DNA of 64,000 bases from an uncultured Gammaproteobacteria bacterium (GTDB taxonomy: Bacteria; Patescibacteriota; Patescibacteriia; 2-01-FULL-39-33). This document shows, piece by piece, positions 17,723 to 54,364 of the stretch (positions within the stretch are counted from its first letter, which is position 1; each line of letters starts with the position of its first letter). The translations under genes were made by a program, and so were the position numbers. The stretch is taken from assembly GCA_964573235.1 (NCBI GenBank), contig CAZNIV010000002.1, positions 6,102 through 70,101 on the forward strand, in the 5' to 3' direction. Below the pieces are notes generated by a model. It was given only the letters and a program-made list of their open reading frames with translations. It searched no databases and was not told where the DNA came from.

Positions 17723-18724
17723 TTATTTTTTTATCTTTTTAACTAACTGATATAAATTATACCAAAAAATTCCATAACCTGTCTCATACGCACCAACATA
17801 ATCAGTAAATTTGGCATTTTCCGCAAAGCCCTGTTTAAATCTAGTTACGCCCGGCCACTTAACTTCATCCACGCCCCAAAAATCATAATATTTTTTACCT
17901 TGGGCTTTAGCTTTTAAAATTGTTTGCCATTGCAACAAATAAGGCGCCATTTTTTGGCGATATTCATAATCAGAAGCCCCGTGTAAATACACACACCAAT
18001 CATTTAAATTAATCACCAAATTGGCCGTCACTACTTTATTATCAATTTTGGCCACTACTACTTCTAAAATATTTTTAACGGATAAAACAGCTACCATTTT
18101 TTGATAATATTCTCCGCCATGGGCCATAAATTCATCACGCTCAGCTGTTAATTTAATCAAGCGTAAAAAATCAGCCAAATATTCAGCGCCGGAATGAATA
18201 GTTACGCCACTCTTTTGCGCCACTTTAATATTGTAGCGGGTCTTAGCTTTCATTTGAGATAGAAGCGCCTCTTCGTTTAGCGTCAAATCCAAAATCAAAG
18301 TTTGTTTCGGTTGAATCATATTGATTTTTTTATAACCAAAATCAGTCAACTCTATGGCGTCTATAAACCAAGCCGGATCCAACCGCGTTAAGATAGCTTT
18401 TTCTTTTACTGCCAAAGATTTTAATTCCGCCAAAAAAAATTTTAGCACTTCCTTTTGTTTTTCTATTTCCAACCCCGCCAATAAGATTGGTCCGCGAGGA
18501 ATGTAAAAATAAGTTTTGCCAAAAACCAATGGATTAACTATTGCCTGAGCGACTAATACTATTTTATCTCCGTCCATCACGCCAATTCTAAAAACTTTTC
18601 GCCCTAAAGCGATTTGTAAATCTCCCCATGACGCATTTTGTAACAAACCAAAATCTCCAGCCTGAGTTTTTACAAACTCCTGCCACTGATTAAGCTCAGC
18701 ATCATTAAAATATTTAATCGTCAT
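17723..18724 (-). CDS. FemAB-family peptidoglycan interpeptide-bridge aminoacyltransferase-like protein
   Basis: YLHGASD...APYLLQWQTILKAKAQGKKYYDFWGV region matches the conserved FemAB/GNAT-like C-terminal motif. Confidence 0.6.
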   Translation of the reverse strand: MTIKYFNDAELNQWQEFVKTQAGDFGLLQNASWGDLQIALGRKVFRIGVMDGDKIVLVAQAIVNPLVFGKTYFYIPRGPILLAGLEIEKQKEVLKFFLAELKSLAVKEKAILTRLDPAWFIDAIELTDFGYKKINMIQPKQTLILDLTLNEEALLSQMKAKTRYNIKVAQKSGVTIHSGAEYLADFLRLIKLTAERDEFMAHGGEYYQKMVAVLSVKNILEVVVAKIDNKVVTANLVINLNDWCVYLHGASDYEYRQKMAPYLLQWQTILKAKAQGKKYYDFWGVDEVKWPGVTRFKQGFAENAKFTDYVGAYETGYGIFWYNLYQLVKKIKK

Positions 18725-21700
18725 TAAATTACAAAACTAATCAAACGCCCCGGTACAAAAATAATTTTCTTAATTTCCGCTCCAGCTAAATACTGTTTAA
18801 TCCGCTCATCTTTTTTAGCTGCTACCACCGCCTCTGCTTCAGAGATTTCTACCGGCAATTCTAACTTAGCACGCACCTTACCATTAACTTGAATGGCAAA
18901 TTGAGCCGTTTTCTTGCTTACCTTATTAACATCATAAACTGGCCACTTTTCTTGATTAATACTGGCCTTGTAGCCTAAATTCTGCCACAACTCTTCGGAT
19001 AAATGAGGCGCAAATGGCGACAACATCACCGCCTCTGCTTCAGAGATTTCTACCGGCAATTCTAACTTAGCACGCACCTTACCATTAACTTGAATGGCAA
19101 ATTGAGCCGTTTTCTTGCTTACCTTATTAACATCATAAACTGGCCACTTTTCTTGATTAATACTGGCCTTGTAGCCTAAATTCTGCCACAACTCTTCGGA
19201 TAAATGAGGCGCAAATGGCGACAACATCACCAAAAATTGTTCCGACATGTCTTTGGTAAACGCTTTTACCTCTTGAATGCGATTAACTAAAATCATCATC
19301 GTAGAAATAGCGGTATTAAAACCCATTGTTTCAACATCACTACCCACTTTCATCACGGTTTGATTAAACAAGATTTCTGTTTCTTCATCAACTTGTTCCA
19401 CGATTTTTATTTCACCACTAGTATACACCGCCCAAACTTTTTCTAAAAATCTCTTTAAACCTACCATGCCTTTAGTGCTCCAAGGCTTAGCATCTTCTAA
19501 TGGACCCATGAACATTTCATACAATCTAAAAACATCCGCGCCATATTCACGCAAAATATCATCAGGATTAACCACATTGCCACGCGACTTACTCATCTTC
19601 TCGCCATCTTCACCTAAAATCAAACCTTGATTAACTAATTTTACAAACGGTTCTTCTTGAGGTACATAACCTAAGTCAAATAACACCATGTTCCAGAATC
19701 TGGCATACAATAAATGTAACACCGCATGCTCGGCACCGCCCAAATAAACATCTACCGGCAACCAATATTTTAATTTTTCCGCCGAAGCAAATTCATTCGG
19801 ATTTTTAGAATCAATATAGCGCAACCAATACCAAGAAGATCCGGCCCATTGAGGCATAGTATTGGTTTCGCGCTGGGCCTTGCCACCACAAACTGGGCAT
19901 TTTACTTCTACCCATTCTTTAATGTTCACCAATGGTGATTCACCGGTACCTGATGGTTCATATTTTTCTACCATCGGCAAAGTTAATGGCAATTCGGATT
20001 CTGGTACTGGCACAATACCGGTATTTTTGCTACGCAAAACTAGCTCCAATAATTCTGGGGTAACTGGATTATTAAAATGACCAAAACCATGCCAAACTTT
20101 AAACATCCAACCAGCTGGAATATTCTCATGCGTCTTACGACTAATCCACGGATCATCGTCAGACAAAATAATATTTTTATCCTCCACTAAATTGCTCACT
20201 TTTTCCCAACTAAAATCTGTTTCCCAAATTTTCTTCAATGATTCAACGTCGGAATTTGGCCATTGCTCTTTAAGCCACTGCCAATCGCGCTCGTTACGCT
20301 CACCAATTGCCGAGGCAATCAAATAAACATGGCCGATTTTTTTATTCGCCTGCTCAATTAAATGTAACGCCGCCTTACTACCCAGACTGTGGCCAATAAC
20401 CACATCATTAGCGCCCATTTTTTGCATATAAGGCTCAAGCGCCTTTAACCAATCAGCTAAAACCGGGTGCTCGCTATTTGGCATATCAGGCGCAAATACC
20501 TCATAGCCATTCTTTTCTAATTCCTGCTTTAAATATGGAAACCAGTTATTACTACCATTGCCCTCAAAACCATGAATCAACAACGCTTTTTGTTTTTGTT
20601 TTTTGCAATAATCACAATGAATTAACGGCATCGGTTCACCCCAATAACGCTGGCGAGAAAATACCCAGTCACGCAATTTATAGTTAACTGCCATCTTGCC
20701 TAAGTTATTAGCTTCTAGCCAGGTAATCATTTTTTTGATGGCATCTTTAGGCAATAACCCATTTAAAAAATCAGAATTAACCATTTTACCAGAGTCAATA
20801 TCCGTAAAGGCTTCGTTGGTAATATCGCCACCGCTAATTACCTCAATAATTGGCAAATCAAATTTCTTCGCAAAAGCATAATCGCGTTCATCATGCGCCG
20901 GCACTGCCATAATCGCGCCCGTACCGTAAGTACTCAAAACATAATCCGAAATCCAAATAGGAATCTCGGTATCATTGACCGGATTAATCGCTTTTATACC
21001 CTCAAGTTCTACGCCAGTCTTATCTTTATTTAATTCTGTACGCTCTAAATCAGATTTATTTTTAGCTTCCGTCGCATACCTAGTTACTTCGGCAAAATTA
21101 GTAATTTTATCTTTTAATTTTTGCACTAATTCATGCTCTGGTGATAACACCATATAAGTCGCACCAAACAAAGTATCTGGGCGAGTGGTATAAACCACGA
21201 TATCAGCCAACTCATCACCATCTTGCGCTACTTTAAAAGTCACTTCGGCGCCTTCACTGCGACCAATCCAATTACGTTGCAAGGTTTTGATTGATTCCGG
21301 CCAATTCATTTGCTCTAAACCACTCAATAAGCGATCGGCATAAGCAGTAATGCGTAACATCCATTGGCGCAAGTTCTTTCTTTCTACGACCGTGCCACAA
21401 CGCTCACATTTGCCATTAACCACCTCTTCGTTGGCCAAGCCAGTTTTACAAGATGGGCAGAAATTAATTGGCACAAAAGCTTCATATGCCAAACCTTTTT
21501 TAAATAACTGTAAAAAAATCCATTGCGTCCATTTATAATATTCCGGATCGGTCGTATCTACTTCACGCTCCCAATCATAAGAAAAACCCAAACTCTTAAT
21601 TTGCTTTCTGAAAGTATTAACATTGCTTTGAGTAGTCACACTCGGATGTGTACCAGTTTTAATCGCATAATTTTCTGCTGGTAAACCAAAAGCGTCCCAA

Positions 21701-21936
21701 CCCATCGGATGTAAAACATTAAACCCCTTTAATCTCCAATAACGAGAAAAAATATCGGTCGCTGTATAACCTTCTGGATGACCAACATGCAAACCCATAC
21801 CTGATGGATAAGGAAACATATCCAAAATATATTTCTTGGGTTTGGTGGAAAAATCTTCAGCTTTAAAAGTTTTATTATCTTCCCAGAACTTCTGCCATTT
21901 TGGCTCAATTTCACTAGGGTTATACTTAGCGTTCAT
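18724..21936 (-). CDS. leuS: Leucine--tRNA ligase carrying a ~195-aa YdeN/RBBP9-like serine-hydrolase insertion and a duplicated 67-aa C-terminal segment
   Basis: HVGHPEGY (HIGH) motif, CP1 editing domain, KMSKS, C-terminal domain. Insert runs from about 20020 to 20604; tandem duplication at 18826..19227. Confidence 0.9.
18826..19227. repeat. Perfect tandem duplication, 2 x 201 bp, in frame inside the leuS 3' region
   Basis: Unit 18826-19026 is identical to 19027-19227 in the displayed sequence; the protein shows [67 protein letters not shown] twice. Confidence 0.85.
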
Positions 21937-22110: not shown

Positions 22111-22491
22111 ATGTGTAAAAACGCACTTTTGTTTCTCTTTTCCCTGATTCTGATTTTTTCGTGGTTTTCTGCGGTAATTGCGACAAAAGTGATTCCGAGC
22201 CAATCCGGCACTGTCACTTTCGTTCAATCCAGCGACCACGAGCTGAAATTTACCCCGTATTTTCCCAAATCGGAGCGTGACCCTCAACCGTCACTCGCCG
22301 TTTTGCCAGAAGAACCGGTAAAAATCAACAAAATCAGACACCTTCCACCAAGCAAAATCGCGTACAAAGCGAAAACTTGGGCGGATGAAAACAGGGAAAT
22401 TCCAGGGTTTTTGACTCTGCCGGGCCCGGCACGCAACAAAGATCCGTGTTGCCAAGAGGCACGGAAACTTGTAGTCTCGACACGGACCTAG
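22111..22491 (+). CDS. Island A gene 1: secreted 126-aa protein of unknown function (GC-rich, foreign codon usage)
   Basis: Signal-peptide-like N-terminus MCKNALLFLFSLILIFSWFSAVIA; GGAAAGGA SD at 22092-22099; CTG/CCG/GCG-rich codons unlike flanking host genes; terminator follows. Confidence 0.5.
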   Translation: MCKNALLFLFSLILIFSWFSAVIATKVIPSQSGTVTFVQSSDHELKFTPYFPKSERDPQPSLAVLPEEPVKINKIRHLPPSKIAYKAKTWADENREIPGFLTLPGPARNKDPCCQEARKLVVSTRT

Positions 22492-22591: not shown

Positions 22592-22620
22592 TTGACAACA
22601 TAACTTTTATGTGGTATAAT
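22592..22620 (+). promoter_or_regulatory. Perfect-consensus sigma70 promoter for island A gene 2 (TTGACA-17-TATAAT)
   Basis: -35 at 22592-22597, -10 at 22615-22620. Confidence 0.65.
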
Positions 22621-22663
22621 ACAGAAGTCGTACATTTAACCGCAACCTCAACTGGAGGATCTC

Positions 22664-22768
22664 ATGAAAGACCTCGTCTTTGTGCTGGCCGTCGGAGTGA
22701 TCTTCGTTTTCATCAAAATCATGAAAGTGCTCCTTGGTGAAAACAAGCAGGCGAAAAAACCCGCTTGA
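22664..22768 (+). CDS. Island A gene 2: 34-aa hydrophobic single-helix peptide MKDLVFVLAVGVIFVFIKIMKVLLGENKQAKKPA (type-I-toxin-like or small membrane peptide)
   Basis: GGAGGA SD at 22654-22659, 4 nt before the ATG; GC-rich codons; sits between the consensus promoter and the terminator. Confidence 0.55.
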   Translation: MKDLVFVLAVGVIFVFIKIMKVLLGENKQAKKPA

Positions 22769-22794
22769 ACACCTCAACCGCCACCACAACCAAA

Positions 22795-22823
22795 AGGCCC
22801 CCGCTGATCACGGAGGCCTTTTA
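22795..22823 (+). terminator. Intrinsic terminator after island A gene 2
   Basis: ggcccccg / cggaggcc stem with palindromic loop tgatca, then a T-run. Confidence 0.6.
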
Positions 22824-22867
22824 ACTTTTATCCTATTTTATAATGTAATATATAAAATTTAGCAAAA

Positions 22868-23334: not shown

Positions 23335-26187
23335 CTACTTTATACTCAATAATTTCTTTAAATACTGACCGGTATAACTATCCTTAACTTTCGCCACATC
23401 CATTGGTGTACCCGAAGCTACTAACTTACCACCAGCCACGCCACCTTCGGGACCTAAATCAATAATCCAATCCGCCGCCTTAATCACATCTAAATTATGT
23501 TCGATCACTAAAATTGAATTACCTTTATCCACCAAGCGATGTAACACTTGCAACAAACGACTAATATCATCAAAATGTAAACCGGTCGTTGGCTCATCCA
23601 AAATATATAAGGTCTTACCTGTTGGACGACGAGATAACTCGGTCGCCAACTTAACTCTTTGCGCTTCACCACCAGATAAAGTAGTCGCACTTTGGCCTAA
23701 ACGCAAGTAACCCAAGCCCACCTCTTCTAAAATCGATAATTTATCAATTACCTGAGGCTCATCAGCAAAAAACTTCTTCGCTTCCGCCACCGACATATCC
23801 AAAACATCGGCAATATTTTTATCTTTATAATGAATTTCTAAGGCATCCTGATTATAGCGCTTGCCATGACATGCTTCACACTCGACAAATACATCAGGCA
23901 AAAATTGCATTTCAATTTTTACATAACCATCGCCGGAACAATTTTCACAACGGCCACCACCTTTAACATTAAAGCTAAAATGACCTTGTTTAAAACCACG
24001 CATTTTACTTTCTGGTAACTCAGCATACAAATCACGAATGTAAGTGAATACACCAGTATAAGTGGCAGGATTAGAGCGAGGAGTGCGACCAATTGGCGAC
24101 TGATCAATGTCAATTACCTTGTCTAAATTTTCTAAACCACGCACTTCTTTATGTTTGCCTGGCAAATCACGAGTACGATAAAACCTATTAGACAAAACTT
24201 TAGTTAAAATTTCACTCATTAAGGTAGATTTACCAGAGCCAGAAACGCCCGTGACGCAAACCAATTTACCTAACGGAATTTTAACATCAATATTCTTTAA
24301 ATTATGTTCCGTGGCACCAATAATTTCAATGTTTTTACCATTACCTTGGCGATAAGACTTGGGCAAAGGAATACATTTTTTGCCGGATAAATATTGACCA
24401 GTTAAAGATTTTTTATCATTTTTTACTTCTTCAAAAGTGCCTTCAGAAACTACTTCGCCACCTAAGCTGCCCGCCCCTGGGCCAATATCAATTACATGAT
24501 CAGCTGATTGCATCATTTGTTCATCGTGCTCTACCACAATTACCGAATTGCCCTTATCTCGCAAGCGTTTTAACGCTTCAATTAACTTAGCAGTATCGCG
24601 CGCATGCAAGCCGATTGAAGGTTCATCAAGCACATAAGTAACTGATTCCAAACCGGAACCAATTTGCGTGGCTAATCTAATTCTTTGCGATTCACCACCG
24701 GCTAAAGTATTAGCACTGCGAGACAAAGTTAAATAATTCAAACCGACTTGTTGTAAAAAGATTAAACGCTTATCTACTTCTTTAATAATTTGTTTAGCAA
24801 TCTTGCCTTCACGCGATTCGCTCTTCCACTTTCTAGATAATTCATCAAATAATTTAGCCAAACTATCAATATCCAAATCAGTCATATCAGCAATCGACAA
24901 ATTATTGATTTTAATCGCCAAACTTTCTGGACGCAATTTGCGACCTTGGCAAGTGGGACAGGTAGAAACACGCATGTATTCCTCAAGAGTTTTCTGCATG
25001 TATTCACTCTTGGCTTCTAAATATTTTTCATTCAAAAATTCAATCACGCCCGGAAATTTTACCGTTGTACCTTCAACCACATATTCTTCTTGACCAGTAC
25101 CTTTCATAATCAATTCAAAAACTTTGTCGGATAATTCCGCCACCGGCACATTCAAACTAAATTTATATTTTTTCGCCACCACCTCTAACAACTTCATGTT
25201 GCTATTTTGAGAAGAAAAATTTCTGGACCAAGGCTTAATCGCGCCTTCGGCTAAAGTTAAACGCTTATTGGGAATAATTAATTCCGGATCCGGAATTAAA
25301 CGCGTACCTAAACCACGGCAAGCCGGACAAGCGCCAAAAGAAGAATTAAAAGAAAAAGAATGCGGTTCAATCTCCGGCAAGCTTATGCCACAATTGCGAC
25401 AAACATAATATAAATTAAAATTATGTTCTTGATTAGTTTCTGGCAAAAAGATATTAATAAATCCGTTACCAAAATCCAATGCTAAGTTAATCGTTTTTTC
25501 TAAGCGTTGCCAATTAACATCTTCTACTTTTTTGGCTTTAGTTTCTGAAGTCAGCGTAACAGTATCCACTAAAATTTCAATAGTATGACTAATATTTTTA
25601 TCAATCTCTAATTTTTTTGCTTCCGTAATATTATAAAAATTGCCATCGATGCGTAACAGTTCGTAATTAGCTTTATCGATCGCTTCAATTTGTTTAGTGT
25701 GAGAACCTTTTTTATTCATGACTACTGGCGCCAAGATTTGCATTTTCACGCCTTCCTTCCAGGTAGTAATCGTATCTAAAATTTGCTTTGGAGTTTGACG
25801 CTCTACTTTTTGCCCACATTTATGACAAAATACTTCGCCGATGCGCGCATAAAGCAAGCGCAAATAATCATAAATTTCTGTGACTGTACCCACAGTAGAG
25901 CGTGGATTAACCGAAGATGATTTTTGATCAATGGCAATGGTTGGCGATAAACCATCGATACTATCGACATCTGGCTTATCCATCAAATCTAAAAATTGCT
26001 TAGCATAAGAAGATAAGCTTTCGGCGTAGCGTCTTTGCCCTTCAGCATACAGCGTATCAAAAGCTAACGAAGACTTGCCAGAACCAGACAAACCAGTGAT
26101 AACCACCAATTTATTTTTGGGGATTTCTAGCGAAACATTTTTTAAATTATTAACTCGCGCACCCTTGATCGTGATCTTATCGGTCAT
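23335..26187 (-). CDS. uvrA: Excinuclease ABC subunit A
   Basis: Two ABC ATPase modules ([14 protein letters not shown]; [10 protein letters not shown]), zinc-finger Cys clusters, 950 aa. Confidence 0.95.
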
Positions 26188-26283
26188 GGGAATAAATTAT
26201 TTATCGCTAATAAAAAAGATAACCCCCATTTTACAATAATAAAGCCACCGTGTCAAATACCCGTAAAGGTTATTTTGAAAATT

Positions 26284-26322
26284 AAAAAAGGTGCCCCATC
26301 GACTTGTGGTCGACGAGCACCC
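26284..26322 (-). terminator. Intrinsic terminator after island B gene
   Basis: Minus-strand hairpin ggtgctcgtcgac...gtcgatggggcacc followed by TTTTTT; a second smaller hairpin lies at 26331-26357. Confidence 0.5.
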
Positions 26323-26369
26323 GTAAACAAGAACTGAGTGGGGAGGAACTCAGCCCCTGCTTCGATATT

Positions 26370-26930
26370 TTATCTGGATTTAACGAGCAATTCTCCGGCT
26401 TTGATGGGTGGGTCTTCTTTGAGCCCTGCATCATGCCGAAAACGCCCATAAATATCAGTGACTTTGGCATCAGTGATATCACTCTGCCCACAACGCTGAC
26501 AGCGACTACTGGCATTTGCTAAATTAATAGCCATTTGCCAATAGCGCTCTTTACTTGCCTCCTCTTGTGCCGTTACCGCCCAAACCTTTTGGCGATTATA
26601 AACAACACAAGCAACAACCACGGCCAACATCATAGCGGTAAACGTCATGCCCACTAAGTGACGATGATGTCGCACCCAGCGCTTGGCTAACACCCAAGTG
26701 ACAACCGTCGGGTAAGCCACCATCAGAGTTAAGACTACCGGCCAAGCCAATAAGTCTTTAAACCGAATCAACGACTGGTTGCACTGAAGCTTTTTTTCGT
26801 TTTGCCGATGATTGCCCCAGCATTTTTGCATGTAATCCAGCTGAGTCGCGCTAACAATATGGTTATCTACGCGATCAGTTGGCACTGTGTCACTGCTCCA
26901 CGGGACAAAGGGGTGACAGATTTTCATCAT
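26370..26930 (-). CDS. Island B: 186-aa protein with two TM helices and a Cys/His-containing C-terminal domain, unknown function
   Basis: AAGGAGGA SD at 26945..26938, 7 nt before the ATG; GC-rich E. coli-like codons; TM segments WPVVLTLMVAYPTVVTWVL and LVGMTFTAMMLAVVVACVV. Confidence 0.55.
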   Translation of the reverse strand: MMKICHPFVPWSSDTVPTDRVDNHIVSATQLDYMQKCWGNHRQNEKKLQCNQSLIRFKDLLAWPVVLTLMVAYPTVVTWVLAKRWVRHHRHLVGMTFTAMMLAVVVACVVYNRQKVWAVTAQEEASKERYWQMAINLANASSRCQRCGQSDITDAKVTDIYGRFRHDAGLKEDPPIKAGELLVKSR

Positions 26931-27022
26931 AGAAACATCCTCCTTGGGTTGTGGTTGACTGATAAATTATCATTATATAAACAGCTCTAAGCTGATTGAT
27001 AAGGTACGATAAATAACTCATT

Positions 27023-27051
27023 AGTATTTCATATTTTACCACTTTTGTCAA
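27023..27051 (-). promoter_or_regulatory. Promoter for island B gene (TTGACA-17-AATACT), -35 overlapping the divergent truD -35
   Basis: Minus-strand TTGACA at 27051..27046; -10 at 27028..27023. Confidence 0.4.
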
Positions 27052-27073
27052 CCCAACTCAAATTTGATATAAT
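27045..27073 (+). promoter_or_regulatory. truD promoter TTGTCA-17-TATAAT; the transcript would be essentially leaderless
   Basis: -10 ends at 27073 and the ATG is at 27083; there is no SD. Confidence 0.45.
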
Positions 27074-27082
27074 AAATATATT

Positions 27083-28462
27083 ATGGAAGATTTTTTAACT
27101 ATCTTAGCGAAACAAAAAAGTTTTTTAGATAAACTGCAAAAAGAGCAGCCGTCTTTATTTACTATTGAACAAATTTTAGATGAAGAAACAACTTTAAAAA
27201 ATATTGGCATCACCACCTTAAGCAATAATCGCCCTGATGGCTATATTAAATTATATCCCCAAGATTTTATTGTGGAAGAGGTTCGTCAAAATGGCACTAT
27301 TAGTGTCATTGAACCAAAAGATGATTTTCCCCTGGCACAAGACGGCAAAAAAACTTTATATTGCAATTTAGTTAAAGCTAATGTTTCTACTATTGATGCC
27401 ATTGCTCGGTTAGCCAAAGCACTTAATCTGGCGCCAGAAAAAATTGGCTATGCTGGTATTAAAGATAATCAAGCTATTACTAGCCAACTAATCGCCTTAC
27501 CTAATATTAACGCTGGTCAAATCACCAGACTAAAAACGGAAAGCTTTTTTTTAACCAACTTTTATTATGGCACCGGCTCACTAAATGTGGCTGATTTAAC
27601 TGGTAATTCATTTACTATTCTAGTGCGTACCAAAGAAAAAATTGATCAGGAGCATTTAAAGCGGGAATTCAAAAAAATAAAAGATAACGGCTTTTTAAAT
27701 TTTTACCAAACTCAACGCTTTGGCACTCCGCGCTTAATTGGCCACCACTTAGGTAAAATGATTTTGCAAGGCAACTATGAGCACGCCATTAAAGCTTTTT
27801 TACTTTACTCCAGTATTCATGATTTAAAATTAGTGCGCATGATTCGCACCGAAGCGCAACAACTTTACGGTTATTGGGATAAAATGAAAAAAGTTTTTGC
27901 TTCTATGCCTGTTACTTTTCAACATGAACTAAAAATCTTATCTCACCTAGAGCAACACCCCCAAGATTTTATTGGTGCTTTACACGCCGTAAAAGATCAA
28001 AGCACTTTATGGATTTATGCTTACCCCAGTTATTTATTTAATTTATTACTTTCCGAGAATCAAAATAATTTACCACCAGAACTGCCTTTACTATTAAATG
28101 ACAATGAAAAAGATATAGCCTTATATCAAAATTATTTAACGCGTGATGGTATTACTAATTTTGCTAAAGCATTAAAACCATTTAAGTTCATTCAGCTTAA
28201 GCGTCGTTTAACGCCAACCCGTGTATATCCTAAAAATATTATGTTTATGTCGACGGATGAGGGTGTGATTTGTCATTTTGATTTGGATAAAGGTTCTTAC
28301 GCTACTTCATTTTTGATGAACTTATTTAAATTATCTAACGGGTTACCTTATCCGGCTTGGACTAAAAAAACACCTTGTGATATTAAAAAATATCTACAAT
28401 TAGGCACTAATGCCGAGGTAGTTAAGAGATTGGGTGATTATATAAAAAGAGAGCAAGTTTAA
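27083..28462 (+). CDS. truD: tRNA pseudouridine(13) synthase TruD-family protein
   Basis: GYAGIKDNQAITSQ and FGTPRLIGHH motifs typical of TruD/Pus7; 459 aa. Confidence 0.7.
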   Translation: MEDFLTILAKQKSFLDKLQKEQPSLFTIEQILDEETTLKNIGITTLSNNRPDGYIKLYPQDFIVEEVRQNGTISVIEPKDDFPLAQDGKKTLYCNLVKANVSTIDAIARLAKALNLAPEKIGYAGIKDNQAITSQLIALPNINAGQITRLKTESFFLTNFYYGTGSLNVADLTGNSFTILVRTKEKIDQEHLKREFKKIKDNGFLNFYQTQRFGTPRLIGHHLGKMILQGNYEHAIKAFLLYSSIHDLKLVRMIRTEAQQLYGYWDKMKKVFASMPVTFQHELKILSHLEQHPQDFIGALHAVKDQSTLWIYAYPSYLFNLLLSENQNNLPPELPLLLNDNEKDIALYQNYLTRDGITNFAKALKPFKFIQLKRRLTPTRVYPKNIMFMSTDEGVICHFDLDKGSYATSFLMNLFKLSNGLPYPAWTKKTPCDIKKYLQLGTNAEVVKRLGDYIKREQV

Positions 28463-28550: not shown

Positions 28551-29135
28551 TTATTTGACGCAGGAGAAATGAACACTGCCCGCGGTGTCCATGGAGATAC
28601 CCATGTGGTTGATCTCCTCCAACTTGTAGCAATCAGCCGTCCGGGAATGGGACGGGTTAATGGTGATCGAGCGATCCGGGTTGTCGAAAACATGGACAAA
28701 CTCGAACACTCGCTCCATGATCGCCTGGATGGCAACTTCCGCCTCCTTGCTCAGCTGAACGGGTTCACCGTCAGCAAAGTTCAGATACAGAAAGCTCATG
28801 TGATCTCCGGCCTTCTTGATGATGTTGGTGCCAATCAGGTTGAACCCGATCGCCTTCATCTCGGCCATAATGCGATCGAACGAAATCATCGTCCAACCCG
28901 TGGGCCCCCAACCAGTGCGGGGCTTGCCGGAATCAGCCTGGCGATTGCCGGCCGCGTCCGTGCGATTGCCACGGAACGCATCCTTGCCAAGCTGCTCGGC
29001 CTGAAACGCGTGATTCTCGATGATCTCGCGCTGTTTGGCCTGACTCAGCACGGCCTTGGCGATACCACCAACCTTGCGAAGCTCTTCAGCGGCGGAGTCG
29101 GCAATACGGACACGAATCAGAATTTTGGTAACCAT
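28551..29135 (-). CDS. Island C gene 1 (194 aa), unknown function
   Basis: AGGAGA SD; its own consensus promoter; strongly GC3-biased codons (ctg, cgt, gcc, ggc, atc, aag). The overlapping plus-strand 225-aa ORF is rejected. Confidence 0.65.
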   Translation of the reverse strand: MVTKILIRVRIADSAAEELRKVGGIAKAVLSQAKQREIIENHAFQAEQLGKDAFRGNRTDAAGNRQADSGKPRTGWGPTGWTMISFDRIMAEMKAIGFNLIGTNIIKKAGDHMSFLYLNFADGEPVQLSKEAEVAIQAIMERVFEFVHVFDNPDRSITINPSHSRTADCYKLEEINHMGISMDTAGSVHFSCVK

Positions 29136-32227: not shown

Positions 32228-33358
32228 TTATTTACCAACAAACACGACCGACTCTTTAGTAGTGGCCGCGGTTTTATAAACTATCTTAATCATTTCTTTA
32301 GTAATATCACGCCCACCTAAACCCATTATAAAGCTAGTAATTTTTTGCTCACTGCCCAAAACGCGACGCATCTCGGAAGCCAAAATACCTTCGGCGCCAA
32401 GCGAAATTGATTTATCAATGACAGCAATATTTTTTGCCTTAACTAACTTCTTTTTAATTTCTTCTCCAGGGAATGGCCGTAAAGCTACTACTTTTAAAAT
32501 ACCTACTTTTTGACCGGATTGTTTTAATTCCGCTACCGTTTCTTTAATCGTACCCAACACCGAACCCATAGCTACAATCACCGTTTCAGCATCTTTATCA
32601 CCAGAATATTCTACTAAATTTAATTCGCGATCAAAAATTTCACCAAACTTTTTCATCTCTTCTTTAATCACTTCTTTTGAGGCTACTAAATCATCATGAA
32701 GCTCTTTACGAATTTCAAAATAATGCGCCGGGGTAGCAAAGGCGCCAAAAGTCACTGGATTATTAACATCTAAAAATTCTTTCGGGGAAAAGGCAGGCAA
32801 ATATTTTTTAATTTTAGTGGCGCTTTCAATTTCTACGGGCTCTACCACATGAGTTAAAATAAAACCATCCAAATTAACTATTACTGGAATAGCTAATTGT
32901 TCTGCAATTTTAAAAGCTAAAATGTGTAAATCACAAACTTCTTGATTATGTTCACCATACAACATAATCCAACCGGAATCACGCACCGTCATCGCATCTT
33001 GCTGATCGTTCCAAATATTAATTGGACCGGAAATAGCGCGATTAGCGCAAGTCATCACTACCGGTAAGCGCATGCCACCGATACAAAAAACCACTTCCGT
33101 CATTAACATTAAGCCTTGAGCACAAGTAGCCGTATAGGTACGAACGCCCGCCGCTGAAGCCCCTTGAACAATAGAGGCGGCAGCAAATTCACTTTCCGCG
33201 CGAATGTATTCAAAATCACCCTCGCCGTCAGCTTTAATTTGCGCCAACTCTTCTACGATATGTGTTTGGGGCGTAATTGGATAGGCACTAATTACCGCCG
33301 GTAAACAGGCATTTACCGTTTCGGCAATAGCGCGACTACCTTCTAATATCTTTTTCAT
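32228..33358 (-). CDS. porA: Pyruvate/2-oxoacid:ferredoxin oxidoreductase alpha subunit
   Basis: PFOR domain I/II sequence; 376 aa. Confidence 0.85.
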   Translation of the reverse strand: MKKILEGSRAIAETVNACLPAVISAYPITPQTHIVEELAQIKADGEGDFEYIRAESEFAAASIVQGASAAGVRTYTATCAQGLMLMTEVVFCIGGMRLPVVMTCANRAISGPINIWNDQQDAMTVRDSGWIMLYGEHNQEVCDLHILAFKIAEQLAIPVIVNLDGFILTHVVEPVEIESATKIKKYLPAFSPKEFLDVNNPVTFGAFATPAHYFEIRKELHDDLVASKEVIKEEMKKFGEIFDRELNLVEYSGDKDAETVIVAMGSVLGTIKETVAELKQSGQKVGILKVVALRPFPGEEIKKKLVKAKNIAVIDKSISLGAEGILASEMRRVLGSEQKITSFIMGLGGRDITKEMIKIVYKTAATTKESVVFVGK

Positions 33359-49201: not shown

Positions 49202-50155
49202 TCAATTCACACCGACCAAATCCTCTTTGTTTATCACAGCAATTTGCCAATTGTGACAAAACTTAAATTGAATGTCATTAGAGCAACAATTAAACTCCTC
49301 CATAATCAGGCGAATTACCACATTATGCGTTAACCGCATCAACGCATCCAAGCGGTTATTGCGACTGGAAAAAATATCCCAGTCTGTCGTCATCTGTTGA
49401 CGTCGCCAAATCTTCACTCCCTCCGCGCTATCCTCAACATTATCCGGCCAGTAATCCTGACGGACCTGATCGAAAAAATGTGTCAATGAATAGAGTTGCT
49501 TAATCGGCTCAGAAATAACCACTCCCAAAACCGAGTCACGCGAACTGGCCGCCGGAAACCGATCACCCAAAGAGCTTTTGATTTTTGAGCGACCGGTAAT
49601 GATTTCTTCTACACAACGGAAGTAATCATTTAGGAAATGATAGCCCGACCTAAACATCAGTGGCAATTGCTCATCGAAATCAGCGGCCACAATAACATGC
49701 CAGCCGTAGCAGATGTCCCACTCGCTGGCCGGATAAGCCAACAATGGGTGCTGAGAAATAATCGACTCATCAAACATGTCGGCAATGATATTCAAGCACT
49801 CATCTTCCGCCTTCAAAAAACTGAGAAACTCAAGCTTTTTTTCGGGCGGCAGAATAGCTGCGTGAGCGATATCAATCGGGCCACTGGGAACAATTCCCGC
49901 ATTCAAGCCATAATCGGCCACCATACAATCCTTCATGAAAAGCCGTTTTTGCCTTTCATAATATTTCTCCGCCAACTGGTAAAGATACCACCAGCGCTTT
50001 GGCCCATCGCCATTAACCACACCCCAAACTCGGCTATTTTCTTCCACCTCGTCTTCATTCGGCTCAATACCGGAAAACTTTCTGAGCGGAACCTTATCCT
50101 TAAAACCTAAGCGTAAAACTTCGCTCAAACGAAGGGGTTTCATTTTGTAGCTCAT
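49202..50155 (-). CDS. Island E gene 1 (317 aa), unknown function
   Basis: Start MSYKMKPLRL with AAGGAGGA SD 5 nt upstream; the track ORF is over-extended to 50212. GC-rich codons. Confidence 0.6.
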   Translation of the reverse strand: MSYKMKPLRLSEVLRLGFKDKVPLRKFSGIEPNEDEVEENSRVWGVVNGDGPKRWWYLYQLAEKYYERQKRLFMKDCMVADYGLNAGIVPSGPIDIAHAAILPPEKKLEFLSFLKAEDECLNIIADMFDESIISQHPLLAYPASEWDICYGWHVIVAADFDEQLPLMFRSGYHFLNDYFRCVEEIITGRSKIKSSLGDRFPAASSRDSVLGVVISEPIKQLYSLTHFFDQVRQDYWPDNVEDSAEGVKIWRRQQMTTDWDIFSSRNNRLDALMRLTHNVVIRLIMEEFNCCSNDIQFKFCHNWQIAVINKEDLVGVN

Positions 50156-50307: not shown

Positions 50308-51273
50308 TTAGTGGGCGAACTTTTTGATGGTAACCACTTGCCACCCTTGACGCAACCCAATAACTCTGGGGCAATTGGCACCGACGGCATCGCGCATCGC
50401 GATTTCGTTCAGGCCATTAACAAGATTGATCATCTCGTTGACTCTGGCAAACTGATCATCCAGAAACCGCGCCCGATCAACCGTTTGCTTGCCCATCCAA
50501 ACATCGAAGGCAAGTTTATTGTTTATGTTGTCGGGAACAATCCCGCTGGCATATTCTCCGATGCGCTCCAGCAACAGACACAGCCGCGGAATAATCGGAT
50601 CATCAACTTCGCAAAGCACCGTTTCTTCGTCGCCAACTGGCGGGAGATTAAAACCATGGGCTTTGGCGACAATCAGGTCGGAGCTATCAGAGAAAATCTC
50701 CGTCAGTCGAGCGAACAAATCGCCGACATACTCGCTCTTGGGAATGGGCTCATAATCCATTTTCCTGGCAACGGCAACACACCAGCCGTTAGTGATTTGC
50801 GGTATGGCTTCCTGGCAAGCCGTGATCGGGAATTCCGAGTGCACCGCCTCCCAAAAAAGAGCGCGCCACAATGAAGCCTGAGACCTGGCATGGATAACCG
50901 CCTCGTAAAGCTGTTTGGCCTTTGGATCGGTTTCAACGACACTCTTAACCTTGCCCGCCCCTTGACTCACCTCTTCCAGGTCAATCGCGAGCATCATCTG
51001 GTCTTGGGAAAATTGACACATCGTGATACCCTGACCAAAACCAGGAGCACCCGACATGTTCCGGCGGAGAAGCTCCACCAGTTCCTTGTGACCGTTATTC
51101 GCTTCGTCGATTTTCTTATCAACCAGCGCCAAAATGGCCTGGCCGATCGGATTTTTCATCGTACCGATCACGACACGACCATCTTCCAGTTCTCCATTCG
51201 GCTCAAAGCCAGAAACCGGTACTTGGCCAGAAAAAATCCGGCACAACAATTCACTCGTTCCGCGACGATTCAT
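50308..51273 (-). CDS. Island E gene 2 (321 aa), unknown function
   Basis: Start MNRRGTSELL with AAGGAGA SD 7 nt upstream; the track start at 51279 is a GTG. GC-rich codons. Confidence 0.6.
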   Translation of the reverse strand: MNRRGTSELLCRIFSGQVPVSGFEPNGELEDGRVVIGTMKNPIGQAILALVDKKIDEANNGHKELVELLRRNMSGAPGFGQGITMCQFSQDQMMLAIDLEEVSQGAGKVKSVVETDPKAKQLYEAVIHARSQASLWRALFWEAVHSEFPITACQEAIPQITNGWCVAVARKMDYEPIPKSEYVGDLFARLTEIFSDSSDLIVAKAHGFNLPPVGDEETVLCEVDDPIIPRLCLLLERIGEYASGIVPDNINNKLAFDVWMGKQTVDRARFLDDQFARVNEMINLVNGLNEIAMRDAVGANCPRVIGLRQGWQVVTIKKFAH

Positions 51274-51332
51274 GGTCACTTCTCCTTATGCTTTCTTGGT
51301 TGACTAACATTTTATACAAAGAACGACTCATA

Positions 51333-53406: not shown

Positions 53407-53560
53407 CCAGAGTCGTCACAGTGACGATTTTAGATATAATTGTTCCTTTCATTTTTATTTGAAATTAACAAGCCGGGTGGTTTGTTGATGATAGGATAGG
53501 GGCATGTCGCCCGCAGTATCTGGAAAAGTAGGCCCAAAAGGCCAAAGGAGGAGAGTTCCC

Positions 53561-54343
53561 ATGAATACGACAAACACAAACCCCGCCACCGTCACCGTCG
53601 CCAAGGGATTGATCGAGTTCAACTCGACAGTCTTGGCAGGAATCGTTTTCCGCAAGGAAGACAAGCCGGCCATCAAAGAAGCAACCGAGAAAGTCGCCAA
53701 CGGGCAGTTTCTGGTTCCGCCGGACAACTCCGACGAGCTCCAGCAAATCGGCATCAGTGATGCCAGCCAGAGCGAGAATCTGCTCGAGTTGCAGAAGGAA
53801 CTCATCAAGCTGGTGAAAACTGGCAAAATGGGTCCGATATGCTTGACTCCGGCTGTTCCCCAGACCACCGTGACCGATGTTCGCATGGAAAACGGCGTAG
53901 TCAAGCGCGAGTTCCCCTCGCACTTGGGTCTGCCGGTTATCGTGGCACAGAACGGCCGCAAGGAGTTTCTCCAGCCCCGCTGGTGGTACATTGGTGCTGA
54001 GATCGGTACCGATCTCGTTCCCAGGTTCACCTGCTGGCAGTACGTCGCCACCCTCGACCGGGAAACTGGTCAGTGGTGCTGGAAGCCGGTTCTGGATGAT
54101 CGTGGCGAACATCGTTGCGCCATGGCAACCGGCGATCGGGTAAAACATTTGGTCGGAGCGAGCTGGAGCCATATGGACCACTTCGTGGTTCCGTTGGTGA
54201 ACAAAGCACGCGAATTGGCCAAGAAGGAAGCTAAGGCGAGCACCATTGTCGCCGCTGCCTTCACCCCGCCCAAGCCCCGGCCCCTCGGCACCATCGGCGA
54301 CGCCATGGCCGCCAAGTCCAAAGGCGCCCACCAGGCCGCCTAA
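53561..54343 (+). CDS. Island F (260 aa), unknown function
   Basis: AAGGAGGAGAG SD before ATG 53561 (the track start 53504 is in frame upstream); GC-rich codons; Ala/Lys/Pro-rich C-terminal tail. Confidence 0.6.
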   Translation: MNTTNTNPATVTVAKGLIEFNSTVLAGIVFRKEDKPAIKEATEKVANGQFLVPPDNSDELQQIGISDASQSENLLELQKELIKLVKTGKMGPICLTPAVPQTTVTDVRMENGVVKREFPSHLGLPVIVAQNGRKEFLQPRWWYIGAEIGTDLVPRFTCWQYVATLDRETGQWCWKPVLDDRGEHRCAMATGDRVKHLVGASWSHMDHFVVPLVNKARELAKKEAKASTIVAAAFTPPKPRPLGTIGDAMAAKSKGAHQAA

Positions 54344-54364
54344 ACCAAACAAACCACCCAAACC

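What the first reader, a model, noticed from the sequence alone, without database searches (positions are those of the whole stretch)
26284..27051. Island B: two-TM protein with Cys/His C-terminal domain, sharing a divergent promoter region with truD
A 186-aa GC-rich ORF has an AAGGAGGA SD and a terminator and belongs to no family I recognise. Its promoter -35 on the minus strand is TTGACA at 27051..27046. This overlaps by 5 of 6 nt the -35 of the host truD promoter on the plus strand, TTGTCA at 27045..27050. The insertion sits precisely inside the uvrA-truD divergent region and reuses the host -35 element.
Basis: seen in the sequence. Interest (0 to 1): 0.55.

Follow-up and report, generated by a model that had tools for sequence, protein, structure and literature searches.

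The report
Orphan membrane-protein gene cassette between uvrA and truD
A self-contained gene for a small two-helix membrane protein with no known relatives was gained between two housekeeping genes of an uncultured Parcubacteria-type bacterium; alone it is ordinary, but it is one of about ten look-alike GC-rich cassettes that carry a ribosome-binding site which the core genes lack.

Summary
Window 26284-27051 (minus strand) carries a perfect -35 TTGACA, a 17-bp spacer, a TG-extended -10, an ~86-nt AT-rich leader, a strong SD (AAGGAGGA, 7 nt before ATG), a 186-codon ORF and a double-hairpin terminator. The protein has two hydrophobic helices. It has no homologue in 5.8 or 1.84 billion proteins, Pfam, NCBIfam, PHROGs, PADLOC or PDB.

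The two closest sampled relatives have uvrA and truD directly adjacent and divergent, so the gene is a lineage-specific gain.

"Reuses the host -35" is probably backwards:
- Nine other GC-rich cassettes in the window also carry a perfect TTGACA 72-126 nt upstream of the start.
- truD has a TG-extended -10 in the window and in a relative, a promoter type that generally needs no -35.

The "Cys/His C-terminal domain" is only one CxxC plus one His.

Wider pattern: 0 of 37 AT-rich core genes have an SD. The GC-rich orphan ORFs do, and they share a C/A-rich box (CAACCAAG-like) next to it. One such "island" gene is conserved downstream of truD in relatives, so GC-richness alone does not prove foreign origin.

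Function is unknown; I infer an envelope accessory protein. Interest is modest for the gene and higher for the class.

The parts
27046..27051 (-). -35 hexamer TTGACA of the cassette promoter. It overlaps TTGTCA 27045..27050 on the + strand.
   Evidence: Intergenic TTGACA enrichment and the constant distance to cassette starts.
27023..27028 (-). -10 hexamer AATACT with an upstream TG (extended -10), 17 bp from the -35. The inferred TSS is near 27016.
   Evidence: The TSS is inferred, not measured. Alternatives: TTGAGT-17-TAAAAT (27061..27033, 9/12), and a lone TATAAT at 26977..26972 read.
26931..27016 (-). AT-rich 5' leader of about 86 nt, inferred from the promoter position.
   Evidence: (GC ~0.29). 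No Rfam match. No inverted repeats with a seed of 6 or more.
26946..26957 (-). C/A-rich box CAACCACAACCC directly 5' of the SD. Related boxes occur in 8 of 10 cassettes.
   Evidence: 8/10 cassettes against 3/37 core genes, Fisher p 2e-5. Nearly identical to CAACCAAACAACCC before the ORF that starts at 50155.
26938..26945 (-). Shine-Dalgarno AAGGAGGA, 7 nt before the ATG.
   Evidence: dG -11.2 kcal/mol; 0 of 37 core genes reach -6.
26370..26930 (-). ORF186: a 186-aa orphan protein. N tail 1-60, TM1, basic loop KRWVRHHRHL, TM2, C tail 112-186.
26685..26750 (-). Codons of TM helix 1 (residues 61-82).
   Evidence: Kyte-Doolittle 19-residue windows up to 1.82.
26598..26654 (-). Codons of TM helix 2 (residues 93-111).
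   Evidence: Kyte-Doolittle up to 2.49.
26322..26364 (-). First 3' hairpin (17-bp stem). Its loop UCCUCCCC resembles an anti-SD.
26284..26321 (-). Intrinsic terminator: a 13-bp GC-rich stem plus U6.
26228..26256 (-). uvrA's own promoter TTGACA-17-TAAAAT (11/12), 27 bp downstream of the cassette terminator. This is a flank, not part of the cassette.
   Evidence: The same promoter is 12/12 in L007 and L013.
27045..27073 (+). truD promoter: TTGTCA-17-TGaTATAAT (extended -10). The ATG lies 9 nt after the -10, so the mRNA is leaderless or nearly so. This is a flank.
   Evidence: L007 has TATAAT, then 6 nt, then ATG, also TG-extended.
23335..26187 (-). uvrA (flanking core gene).
   Evidence: 75% and 72% identical to the uvrA of L007 and L013.
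27083..28462 (+). truD (flanking core gene).

Best explanation
Window 26284-27051 is a monocistronic expression cassette on the minus strand. It was gained in this Parcubacteria-like lineage between the uvrA promoter and the truD promoter.

Shown from sequence:
- A sigma-70-type promoter with a perfect -35.
- A long AT-rich leader ending in a C/A-rich box and a strong SD.
- A GC-rich 186-codon ORF.
- A tandem-hairpin terminator that insulates uvrA, which keeps its own conserved promoter.

The product is a helical-hairpin membrane protein with two TM helices joined by a 10-residue basic loop. Both soluble tails, of about 60 and 75 aa, therefore lie on the same side of the membrane. It has no detectable homologue.

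The cassette is one of about ten in this 64-kb window with the same design: perfect TTGACA, a leader of roughly 35-90 nt, a CAACC-type box plus SD, a GC-rich ORF without Pfam match (three of them not in the protein collection as called), and in most a terminator. The AT-rich core genes have no SD at all.

Inferred:
- The TTGACA belongs to the cassette.
- Because it overlaps the -35 position of truD's extended -10 promoter, the two RNA polymerases probably cannot bind at once. ORF186 and truD would then compete for initiation.
- Translation of ORF186 depends on SD/anti-SD pairing, unlike the core genes.
- The protein is an accessory envelope protein. The K+R count (21 in the tails, 4 in the loop) favours cytoplasmic tails, where the CxxC and the N-tail Cys/His could bind a metal. 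The biochemical role is unknown.
For: Anatomy.

Coding:
- ORF-length probability 0.002.
- SD at 7 nt from the ATG.
- GC1 > GC3 > GC2.
- The gene is called in NCBI, JGI and ENA records.

Orphan status.

Lineage-specific gain:
- L007 and L013 have uvrA and truD adjacent with no ORF between them.
- UvrA identity is 75% and 72%; TruD identity is 55% and 51%.
- uvrA keeps its own promoter in all three genomes.

Class membership:
- SD dichotomy: 6 of 9 GC-rich ORFs against 0 of 37 core genes, p 9e-6.
- Perfect TTGACA upstream of every cassette.
- C/A box in 8 of 10 against 3 of 37, p 2e-5.
- The ORF186 ribosome-binding module nearly equals that of the ORF starting at 50155, whose start matches the NCBI call.
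- Codon usage lies 4.6 SD from the core mean, toward the cassette set.

The same dichotomy is seen in relatives L007-L014.
Against: - There are no expression data, so the promoter, the TSS and the competition with truD rest on consensus matches only. The -10 is only 4/6, and two alternative minus-strand promoters exist (and the sequence).
- The organism's 16S 3' end is not in the window. About half of Parcubacteria 16S sequences lack the anti-SD motif (PMC9297842), so the SD might not be functional.
- There is no sequence variation for a selection test: six metagenome contigs are 100% identical, and one MAG differs by a single non-synonymous SNP, G162W.
- Topology is ambiguous, because the loop is the most densely basic segment.
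- The AlphaFold model is unreliable (pLDDT 55.5).
- Function is pure inference.
Confidence: 0.6

Rival explanations
1. Recent horizontal transfer of a 'moron'-like gene from an SD-using donor of higher GC content (phage, plasmid or the symbiont's host). On this reading the SD, GC content and codon usage are unameliorated donor traits and need not function in this SD-less host.
For: - Atypical GC3 and codon usage.
- Absent from relatives at this site.
- Own promoter and terminator.
- Core genes lack an SD.
- Some Parcubacteria lack the anti-SD (PMC9297842).
Against: - No homologue exists in any donor among 15 billion proteins or in IMG/VR.
- There is no integrase, transposase or flanking repeat.
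- A GC-rich, SD-led ORF family sits downstream of truD in seven deeply diverged genomes and keeps its SD in six of them. GC-richness plus an SD can therefore persist long-term.
- The shared C/A box and perfect -35 across cassettes would require one common donor.
Confidence: 0.25
2. A promoter-less GC-rich gene landed beside truD's pre-existing -35 and is transcribed by co-opting that host hexamer in the opposite direction.
For: - The two hexamers overlap by 5 nt, and each lies 17 bp from a -10.
- The region 26946-27044 is AT-rich like host spacer DNA.
Against: - Every other cassette brings its own perfect TTGACA at 72-126 nt from its start.
- truD's promoter is TG-extended, and in L007 its -35 is the poor TTTATA.
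- A host -35 that happens to read as a perfect TTGACA on the opposite strand is improbable.
Confidence: 0.12
3. Not a protein gene. On this reading the GC-rich segment is a structured non-coding RNA or an inert remnant, and the ORF is fortuitous.
For: - The transcript folds better than shuffles (z = -4.8 with 20 shuffles).
- There is no homologue and no selection evidence.
- GC-rich islands in AT-rich genomes are often RNA genes (general knowledge).
Against: - About half of the excess folding energy comes from the two 3' hairpins.
- No Rfam hit at E <= 1.
- ORF-length probability 0.002.
- An SD at ideal spacing.
- Two clean TM segments with a basic loop.
- Codon-position GC pattern typical of coding sequence.
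Confidence: 0.05

Closest known systems
Phage 'morons': single genes with their own promoter and terminator, inserted between genes that are adjacent in related genomes (from my own knowledge of the phage literature)
   Same: An autonomous promoter-gene-terminator unit. Atypical base composition. Inserted between two genes that are adjacent in relatives. The product is a small membrane protein, as many moron products are.
   Different: The flanks are chromosomal housekeeping genes (uvrA, truD), not a prophage. No PHROG match and no IMG/VR match. About ten similar cassettes are scattered among core genes.
SD-led minority genes in SD-'blind' Bacteroidia, such as rpsU, translated by ribosomes lacking bS21 (PMC7797042, PMC9976891, PMC13000453)
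   Same: A genome whose core genes lack SDs while a small subset carries strong SDs. This implies a separate translation-initiation regime.
   Different: In Flavobacterium the subset is essentially one autoregulated ribosomal gene. Here it is a set of GC-rich orphan genes. The phylum differs. The state of the anti-SD and of bS21 in this organism is unknown, and some Parcubacteria lack the anti-SD motif (PMC9297842).
Bidirectional promoters arising from DNA-sequence symmetry (PMC10268837, PMC12825309)
   Same: Two divergent promoters share a pseudo-symmetric element, so one RNA polymerase binding event should exclude the other.
   Different: My understanding of that work, not checked here beyond the abstracts, is that the shared element is the -10 and the starts lie about 18 bp apart. 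Here the shared element is the -35 (TTGTCAA) and the inferred starts are about 64 bp apart. This is the classical back-to-back arrangement.
Zinc-binding anti-sigma factors (zf-HC2, PF13490) and other small Cys/His membrane-anchored regulators
   Same: A small membrane-anchored protein with Cys/His in its soluble parts.
   Different: No H-x3-C-x2-C motif, two TM helices instead of one, no adjacent sigma-factor gene, and no Pfam hit.

Membership tests
Phage moron | The gene is flanked by its own promoter and intrinsic terminator. | tested here: met
   Consensus scans and folding only. There are no transcript data.
Phage moron | The gene is inserted between genes that are adjacent in related genomes. 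| tested here: met
   uvrA and truD are adjacent in L007 and L013.
Phage moron | The gene lies within a phage or prophage genome. | tested here: not met
   The flanks are uvrA and truD. No PHROG hits and no viral contig.
ZAS anti-sigma factor (zf-HC2) | An N-terminal H-x3-C-x2-C zinc motif. | tested here: not met
   Cys/His positions are 5, 6, 24, 37, 41, 50, 88, 89, 91, 108, 144, 147 and 166. The motif is absent and Pfam gives no hit.
ZAS anti-sigma factor (zf-HC2) | Co-transcribed with, or adjacent to, an ECF sigma-factor gene. | tested here: not met
   The neighbours are uvrA and truD.
Class II holin | A small two-TM protein of about 65-95 aa next to an endolysin gene. | tested here: not met
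   It has two TM helices but is 186 aa. There is no lysis gene nearby and no PHROG hit.
GntP permease, Wzy_C, DUF6594 (weak Pfam and NCBIfam hits) | A score at or above the curated family cut-off. | tested here: not met
   Scores are 13-16 bits against cut-offs of 22-524, over the TM segments only.
Known anti-phage defence proteins (PADLOC) | A match to a defence-system model. | tested here: not met
   No hit at E <= 0.1.
Symmetric bidirectional promoter (shared -10) | Divergent starts driven by one pseudo-symmetric -10 element. | tested here: not met
   The shared element is the -35. The two -10 elements lie at 27023-27028 and 27068-27073. The definition of this family is from my own knowledge; only abstracts were seen.
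SD-dependent gene subset in an SD-less genome (Bacteroidia-type) | Core genes lack an SD while a subset has a strong one. | tested here: met
   0 of 37 against 6 of 9, p 9e-6. Relatives show the same.
SD-dependent gene subset in an SD-less genome (Bacteroidia-type) | The anti-SD is present in 16S rRNA but occluded or conditionally available. | not testable with these tools
   There is no rRNA gene in the window, and this genome was not recovered from genome contigs by a scan using its own TruD peptides.

The most novel reading that the evidence does not exclude
ORF186 belongs to a previously undescribed, translationally distinct gene set in SD-less Parcubacteria. The set consists of monocistronic, GC-rich cassettes with a perfect -35, a long leader, a CAACC-type box and a strong SD. 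Their translation would be gated by availability of the 16S anti-SD or by a factor that binds the C/A box. That would be a regulon-scale analogue of the single-gene bS21/rpsU circuit of Flavobacteria, used here for fast-evolving accessory proteins, several of them membrane proteins.
Probability: 0.15. Interest if true: 0.7.

Novelty: new member of a known kind. Interest (0 to 1): 0.38.

Why it matters
Taken alone, the gene is one more orphan small membrane protein in an uncultured CPR bacterium.

It matters as the clearest example of a pattern that is easy to test genome-wide. In this clade the housekeeping genes use no Shine-Dalgarno sequence and often have minimal leaders. A minority of GC-rich, mostly unannotated genes carries textbook promoters, long leaders, a shared C/A-rich box and strong SDs.

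If that dichotomy holds across genomes, three things follow:
- It gives a sequence signature for picking out the accessory or fast-evolving gene pool of Parcubacteria.
- It bears on why the anti-SD is retained or lost in these reduced ribosomes.
- It warns against reading GC-rich islands in these genomes simply as foreign DNA.

Tried and rejected
Homology searches for ORF186 found only the sequence itself:
- Word-indexed search of 5.8 billion proteins.
- Exhaustive phmmer of 1.84 billion representatives. Its one other hit, P0003, is a translated tandem repeat.
- Pfam, NCBIfam, PHROGs, PADLOC and PDB sequences gave nothing above threshold.
- IMG/VR gave nothing.
- No paralogue in the window and no relative in the fetched loci.

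Structure: single-sequence AlphaFold gave pLDDT 55.5 and pTM 0.28. I did not run fold searches, because matches to such a model are meaningless.

RNA: no Rfam hit at gathering score over the whole window apart from one tRNA, and none at E <= 1 over 26000-27300.

Mobile-element signs: no flanking direct or inverted repeats. No integrase or transposase domain in the ORFs scanned.

Selection test: impossible. Six contigs are 100% identical to the window, and the NCBI MAG differs by 2 SNPs in 4.4 kb. The divergent ends of contig L001 are Nextera adapter sequence, not a variant junction.

Relatives: a genome-contig scan with TruD found nothing. I found relatives through TruD homologues instead.

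My third protein search went on ORF 50308..51279, which is not in the collection as called.

Rejected readings: ZAS anti-sigma factor, holin, GntP fragment, non-coding RNA, and 'promoter-less insert re-using truD's -35'. Reasons are given in the membership tests and rival explanations.

Full report
**What is there.** The window is AT-rich (38.6% GC). By its TruD and UvrA homologues it comes from an uncultured Patescibacteria/Parcubacteria-type bacterium.

Between uvrA (23335..26187, minus) and truD (27083..28462, plus) lies a 186-codon ORF, 26370..26930 on the minus strand.
- Its GC is 0.48 and its GC3 0.49. Core genes have GC 0.33-0.45 and GC3 0.23-0.44.
- Its synonymous codon usage lies 4.6 SD outside the core distribution.
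- AAGGAGGA sits 7 nt before the ATG.
- After the stop codon come a 17-bp hairpin and then a 13-bp stem with a U6 tract.
- An ORF of this length appears in only 0.2% of composition-matched simulations.

I treat it as a real gene. NCBI, JGI and ENA pipelines call it too.

**The protein.** Hydropathy gives two TM helices, at about residues 61-82 and 93-111. They are joined by KRWVRHHRHL, so the roughly 60-aa N tail and the roughly 75-aa C tail lie on the same side of the membrane.
- The total K+R count (21 in the tails, 4 in the loop) favours cytoplasmic tails. The loop is the densest basic segment, however, so topology stays open.
- The 'Cys/His C-terminal domain' reduces to C144-x2-C147 plus H166. 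The N tail has C5, H6, H24, C37, H41 and C50.
- No homologue exists. Only the sequence itself, plus a G162W variant, turns up in 5.8 billion clustered proteins and 1.84 billion representatives. The sole other hit is a translated tandem repeat.
- Pfam, NCBIfam, PHROGs, PADLOC, PDB sequences and IMG/VR are negative.
- Single-sequence AlphaFold is unreliable (pLDDT 55.5), so I ran no fold search.

**Is it an insertion?** Yes, relative to the nearest sampled genomes.
- In L007 (TruD 55% identical, UvrA 75%) uvrA and truD are directly divergent with a 306-bp spacer and no ORF.
- In L013 (TruD 51%, UvrA 72%) the spacer is 106 bp, again with no ORF.
- In all three genomes uvrA keeps a near-perfect promoter of its own just upstream.

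These relatives are distant, so the timing is unconstrained. With no homologue anywhere, gain is more parsimonious than two losses. No repeats, integrase or transposase flank it.

**The promoter claim.** A 10/12 match in AT-rich spacer is not remarkable alone: the scan found 6 sites against 3.7 +/- 1.7 in shuffles.

The perfect TTGACA is remarkable, though.
- Only 27 TTGACA occur in the window on both strands, and 12 of them lie in the ~10% that is intergenic.
- 10 of those 12 lie 69-126 nt upstream of a same-strand start codon: uvrA, eight GC-rich orphan ORFs including ORF186, and a 34-codon ORF.
- Two of the orphan promoters are 12/12 consensus.

By analogy the 27051 promoter is credible. 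The inferred start is near 27016, giving an ~86-nt leader.

The same analogy argues that the hexamer belongs to the cassette, not to truD.
- truD has a TG-extended -10 in the window and in L007, where its -35 is the poor TTTATA. From general knowledge of E. coli sigma-70 promoters, extended -10 promoters do not need a -35.
- The 5-of-6 overlap is largely automatic, because the complement of TTGACA is TGTCAA.
- truD's ATG lies 9 nt after its -10 (6 nt in L007), so its mRNA is leaderless or nearly so.

Inferred consequence: the two polymerases would compete for the shared segment.

**The wider pattern.** This is the most interesting result. None of 37 AT-rich core genes has an SD. Six of nine GC-rich ORFs reach -6 kcal/mol or better, and the other three reach -5.3 to -5.9 (Fisher p 9e-6).
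- Eight of ten cassettes, against 3 of 37 core genes, have a CAAC(C/A) box just 5' of the SD (p 2e-5).
- ORF186's CAACCACAACCCAAGGAGGA is almost the same as CAACCAAACAACCCAAGGAGGA before the ORF that starts at 50155. That start agrees with NCBI's annotation.
- Most cassettes carry their own terminators.
- Products include ORF186 (two TM helices), a 126-aa protein with a hydrophobic N terminus, and a 34-aa single-TM peptide. None of those scanned has a Pfam match.

The same split appears in relatives L007-L014: SD-less core genes, and SD-led, often GC-richer small ORFs behind TTGACA promoters and long leaders.

**GC-richness is not proof of foreign origin.** ORF 28551..29135 is GC 0.56, has an SD and a 12/12 promoter. 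It has a homologue in the same position downstream of truD in L012 (33% identity, E 4e-29). It shows weaker similarity to a conserved ~200-aa family in L007-L010. In those genomes too the gene is GC-enriched and mostly SD-led. Either the family is vertically conserved, or related elements repeatedly target that site.

Tsurumaki et al. report that the anti-SD motif is missing from about half of Parcubacteria 16S sequences (PMC9297842). Whether this organism has it cannot be tested here. Conservation of SDs across orthologues suggests that SDs are used.

**Non-coding alternative.** The transcript folds better than shuffles (z = -4.8), but about half of the excess comes from the terminator hairpins. 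There is no Rfam match. The coding evidence is stronger.

**Population data.** Six metagenome contigs and two MAG contigs are identical to the window, apart from 2 SNPs in 4.4 kb in one of the MAG contigs. No selection test is possible.

**Verdict.** It is probably wrong about whose -35 it is, and it is overstated about a Cys/His domain and about foreignness.

The gene is an ordinary lineage-specific orphan. Its membership in a uniform class of SD-dependent cassettes, in a genome that otherwise lacks SDs, deserves follow-up. The closest analogies are phage morons for the architecture and the SD-blind Bacteroidia ribosome system for the translation dichotomy (PMC7797042, PMC9976891, PMC13000453). 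It meets neither definition fully.

Noticed in passing
whole window; cassette start codons at 22111(+), 22664(+), 26930(-), 29135(-), 29820(-), 30395(-), 46201(-), 50155(-), 51279(-), 53504(+): There are two gene classes. About 37 AT-rich core genes have no SD. About 10 GC-rich orphan ORFs have a strong SD, a CAACC-type box, a leader of roughly 35-90 nt and, in most, their own terminator. All but 29820 (which follows directly after the 30395 ORF's terminator) also have a perfect TTGACA -35 72-126 nt upstream.
   Followed up: partly
window 28551..29135 (-); L012 3264..3857; L007 6988..7593; L008 4143..4754; L009 3836..4441; L010 7463..8089; L014 1728..2363: A ~200-aa family with no Pfam match always lies just downstream of truD on the opposite strand. 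It is GC-enriched relative to its genome and mostly SD-led. Four members share GQYRLDTIN and NTYR motifs. The window copy is divergent (E 4e-29 to L012; hhalign E 3e-4 to the four-member alignment).
   Followed up: partly
window 22592..22830 (+): An unannotated cassette: a 12/12 promoter (TTGACA-17-TATAAT), SD CTGGAGGA, a 34-codon ORF (MKDLVFVLAVGVIFVFIKIMKVLLGENKQAKKPA, one TM helix) at 22664..22768, then a hairpin with a T-rich tail. It resembles a type I toxin or another small membrane peptide.
   Followed up: no
window 27068..27085; L007 5443..5457: truD appears leaderless or nearly so. A TG-extended TATAAT lies 9 nt (window) or 6 nt (L007) before the ATG, with no SD.
   Followed up: partly
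window 26322..26364 (-): The first 3' hairpin of ORF186 has the loop UCCUCCCC, which is complementary to the gene's own SD (AAGGAGGA). Long-range 5'-3' pairing is conceivable but was not tested.
   Followed up: no
window 18826..19227: A perfect 201-nt tandem duplication (two copies, 100% identical) lies inside the 1070-aa ORF 18724..21936.
   Followed up: no
L007 8743..10839: The pyruvate:ferredoxin oxidoreductase alpha-type gene (POR_N) of relative L007 carries an intein (Hom_end_hint, Intein_splicing, LAGLIDADG). The window orthologue (32228..33358, 376 aa) does not.
   Followed up: no
L008 5119..6330 and L009 4714..5776: Near truD in these relatives lies a run of SD-led genes: a sigma-70/ECF-like protein (L008), an HTH_17 excisionase-like protein (L008) and a 91-aa ORF (both). 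In both loci the sequence just upstream of the 91-aa ORF looks like a tRNA 3' end (read by eye; not confirmed with a tRNA scan). This may be an integrated element.
   Followed up: no
window 26183-26231 and 26991-27007: Independent assemblies (ENA, JGI, NCBI MAG) repeatedly break contigs in the two AT-rich spacers flanking ORF186. One contig end is Nextera adapter. This is probably low coverage rather than a structural variant.
   Followed up: partly
window 50308..51279 (-) and 53465..54361 (-) / 53504..54343 (+): These GC-rich ORFs (GC up to 0.58, with long ORFs on both strands) are not in the protein collection as called. The strand and start of the real genes there are unresolved.
   Followed up: no
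L007 5262..5360: The uvrA-truD spacer of relative L007 contains two GC-rich hairpins (CCCTCCCCTTG...CAAGGGGAGGG and CTCCCCCTT...AAGGGGGAG) with no T-tract. Their nature is unknown.
   Followed up: no
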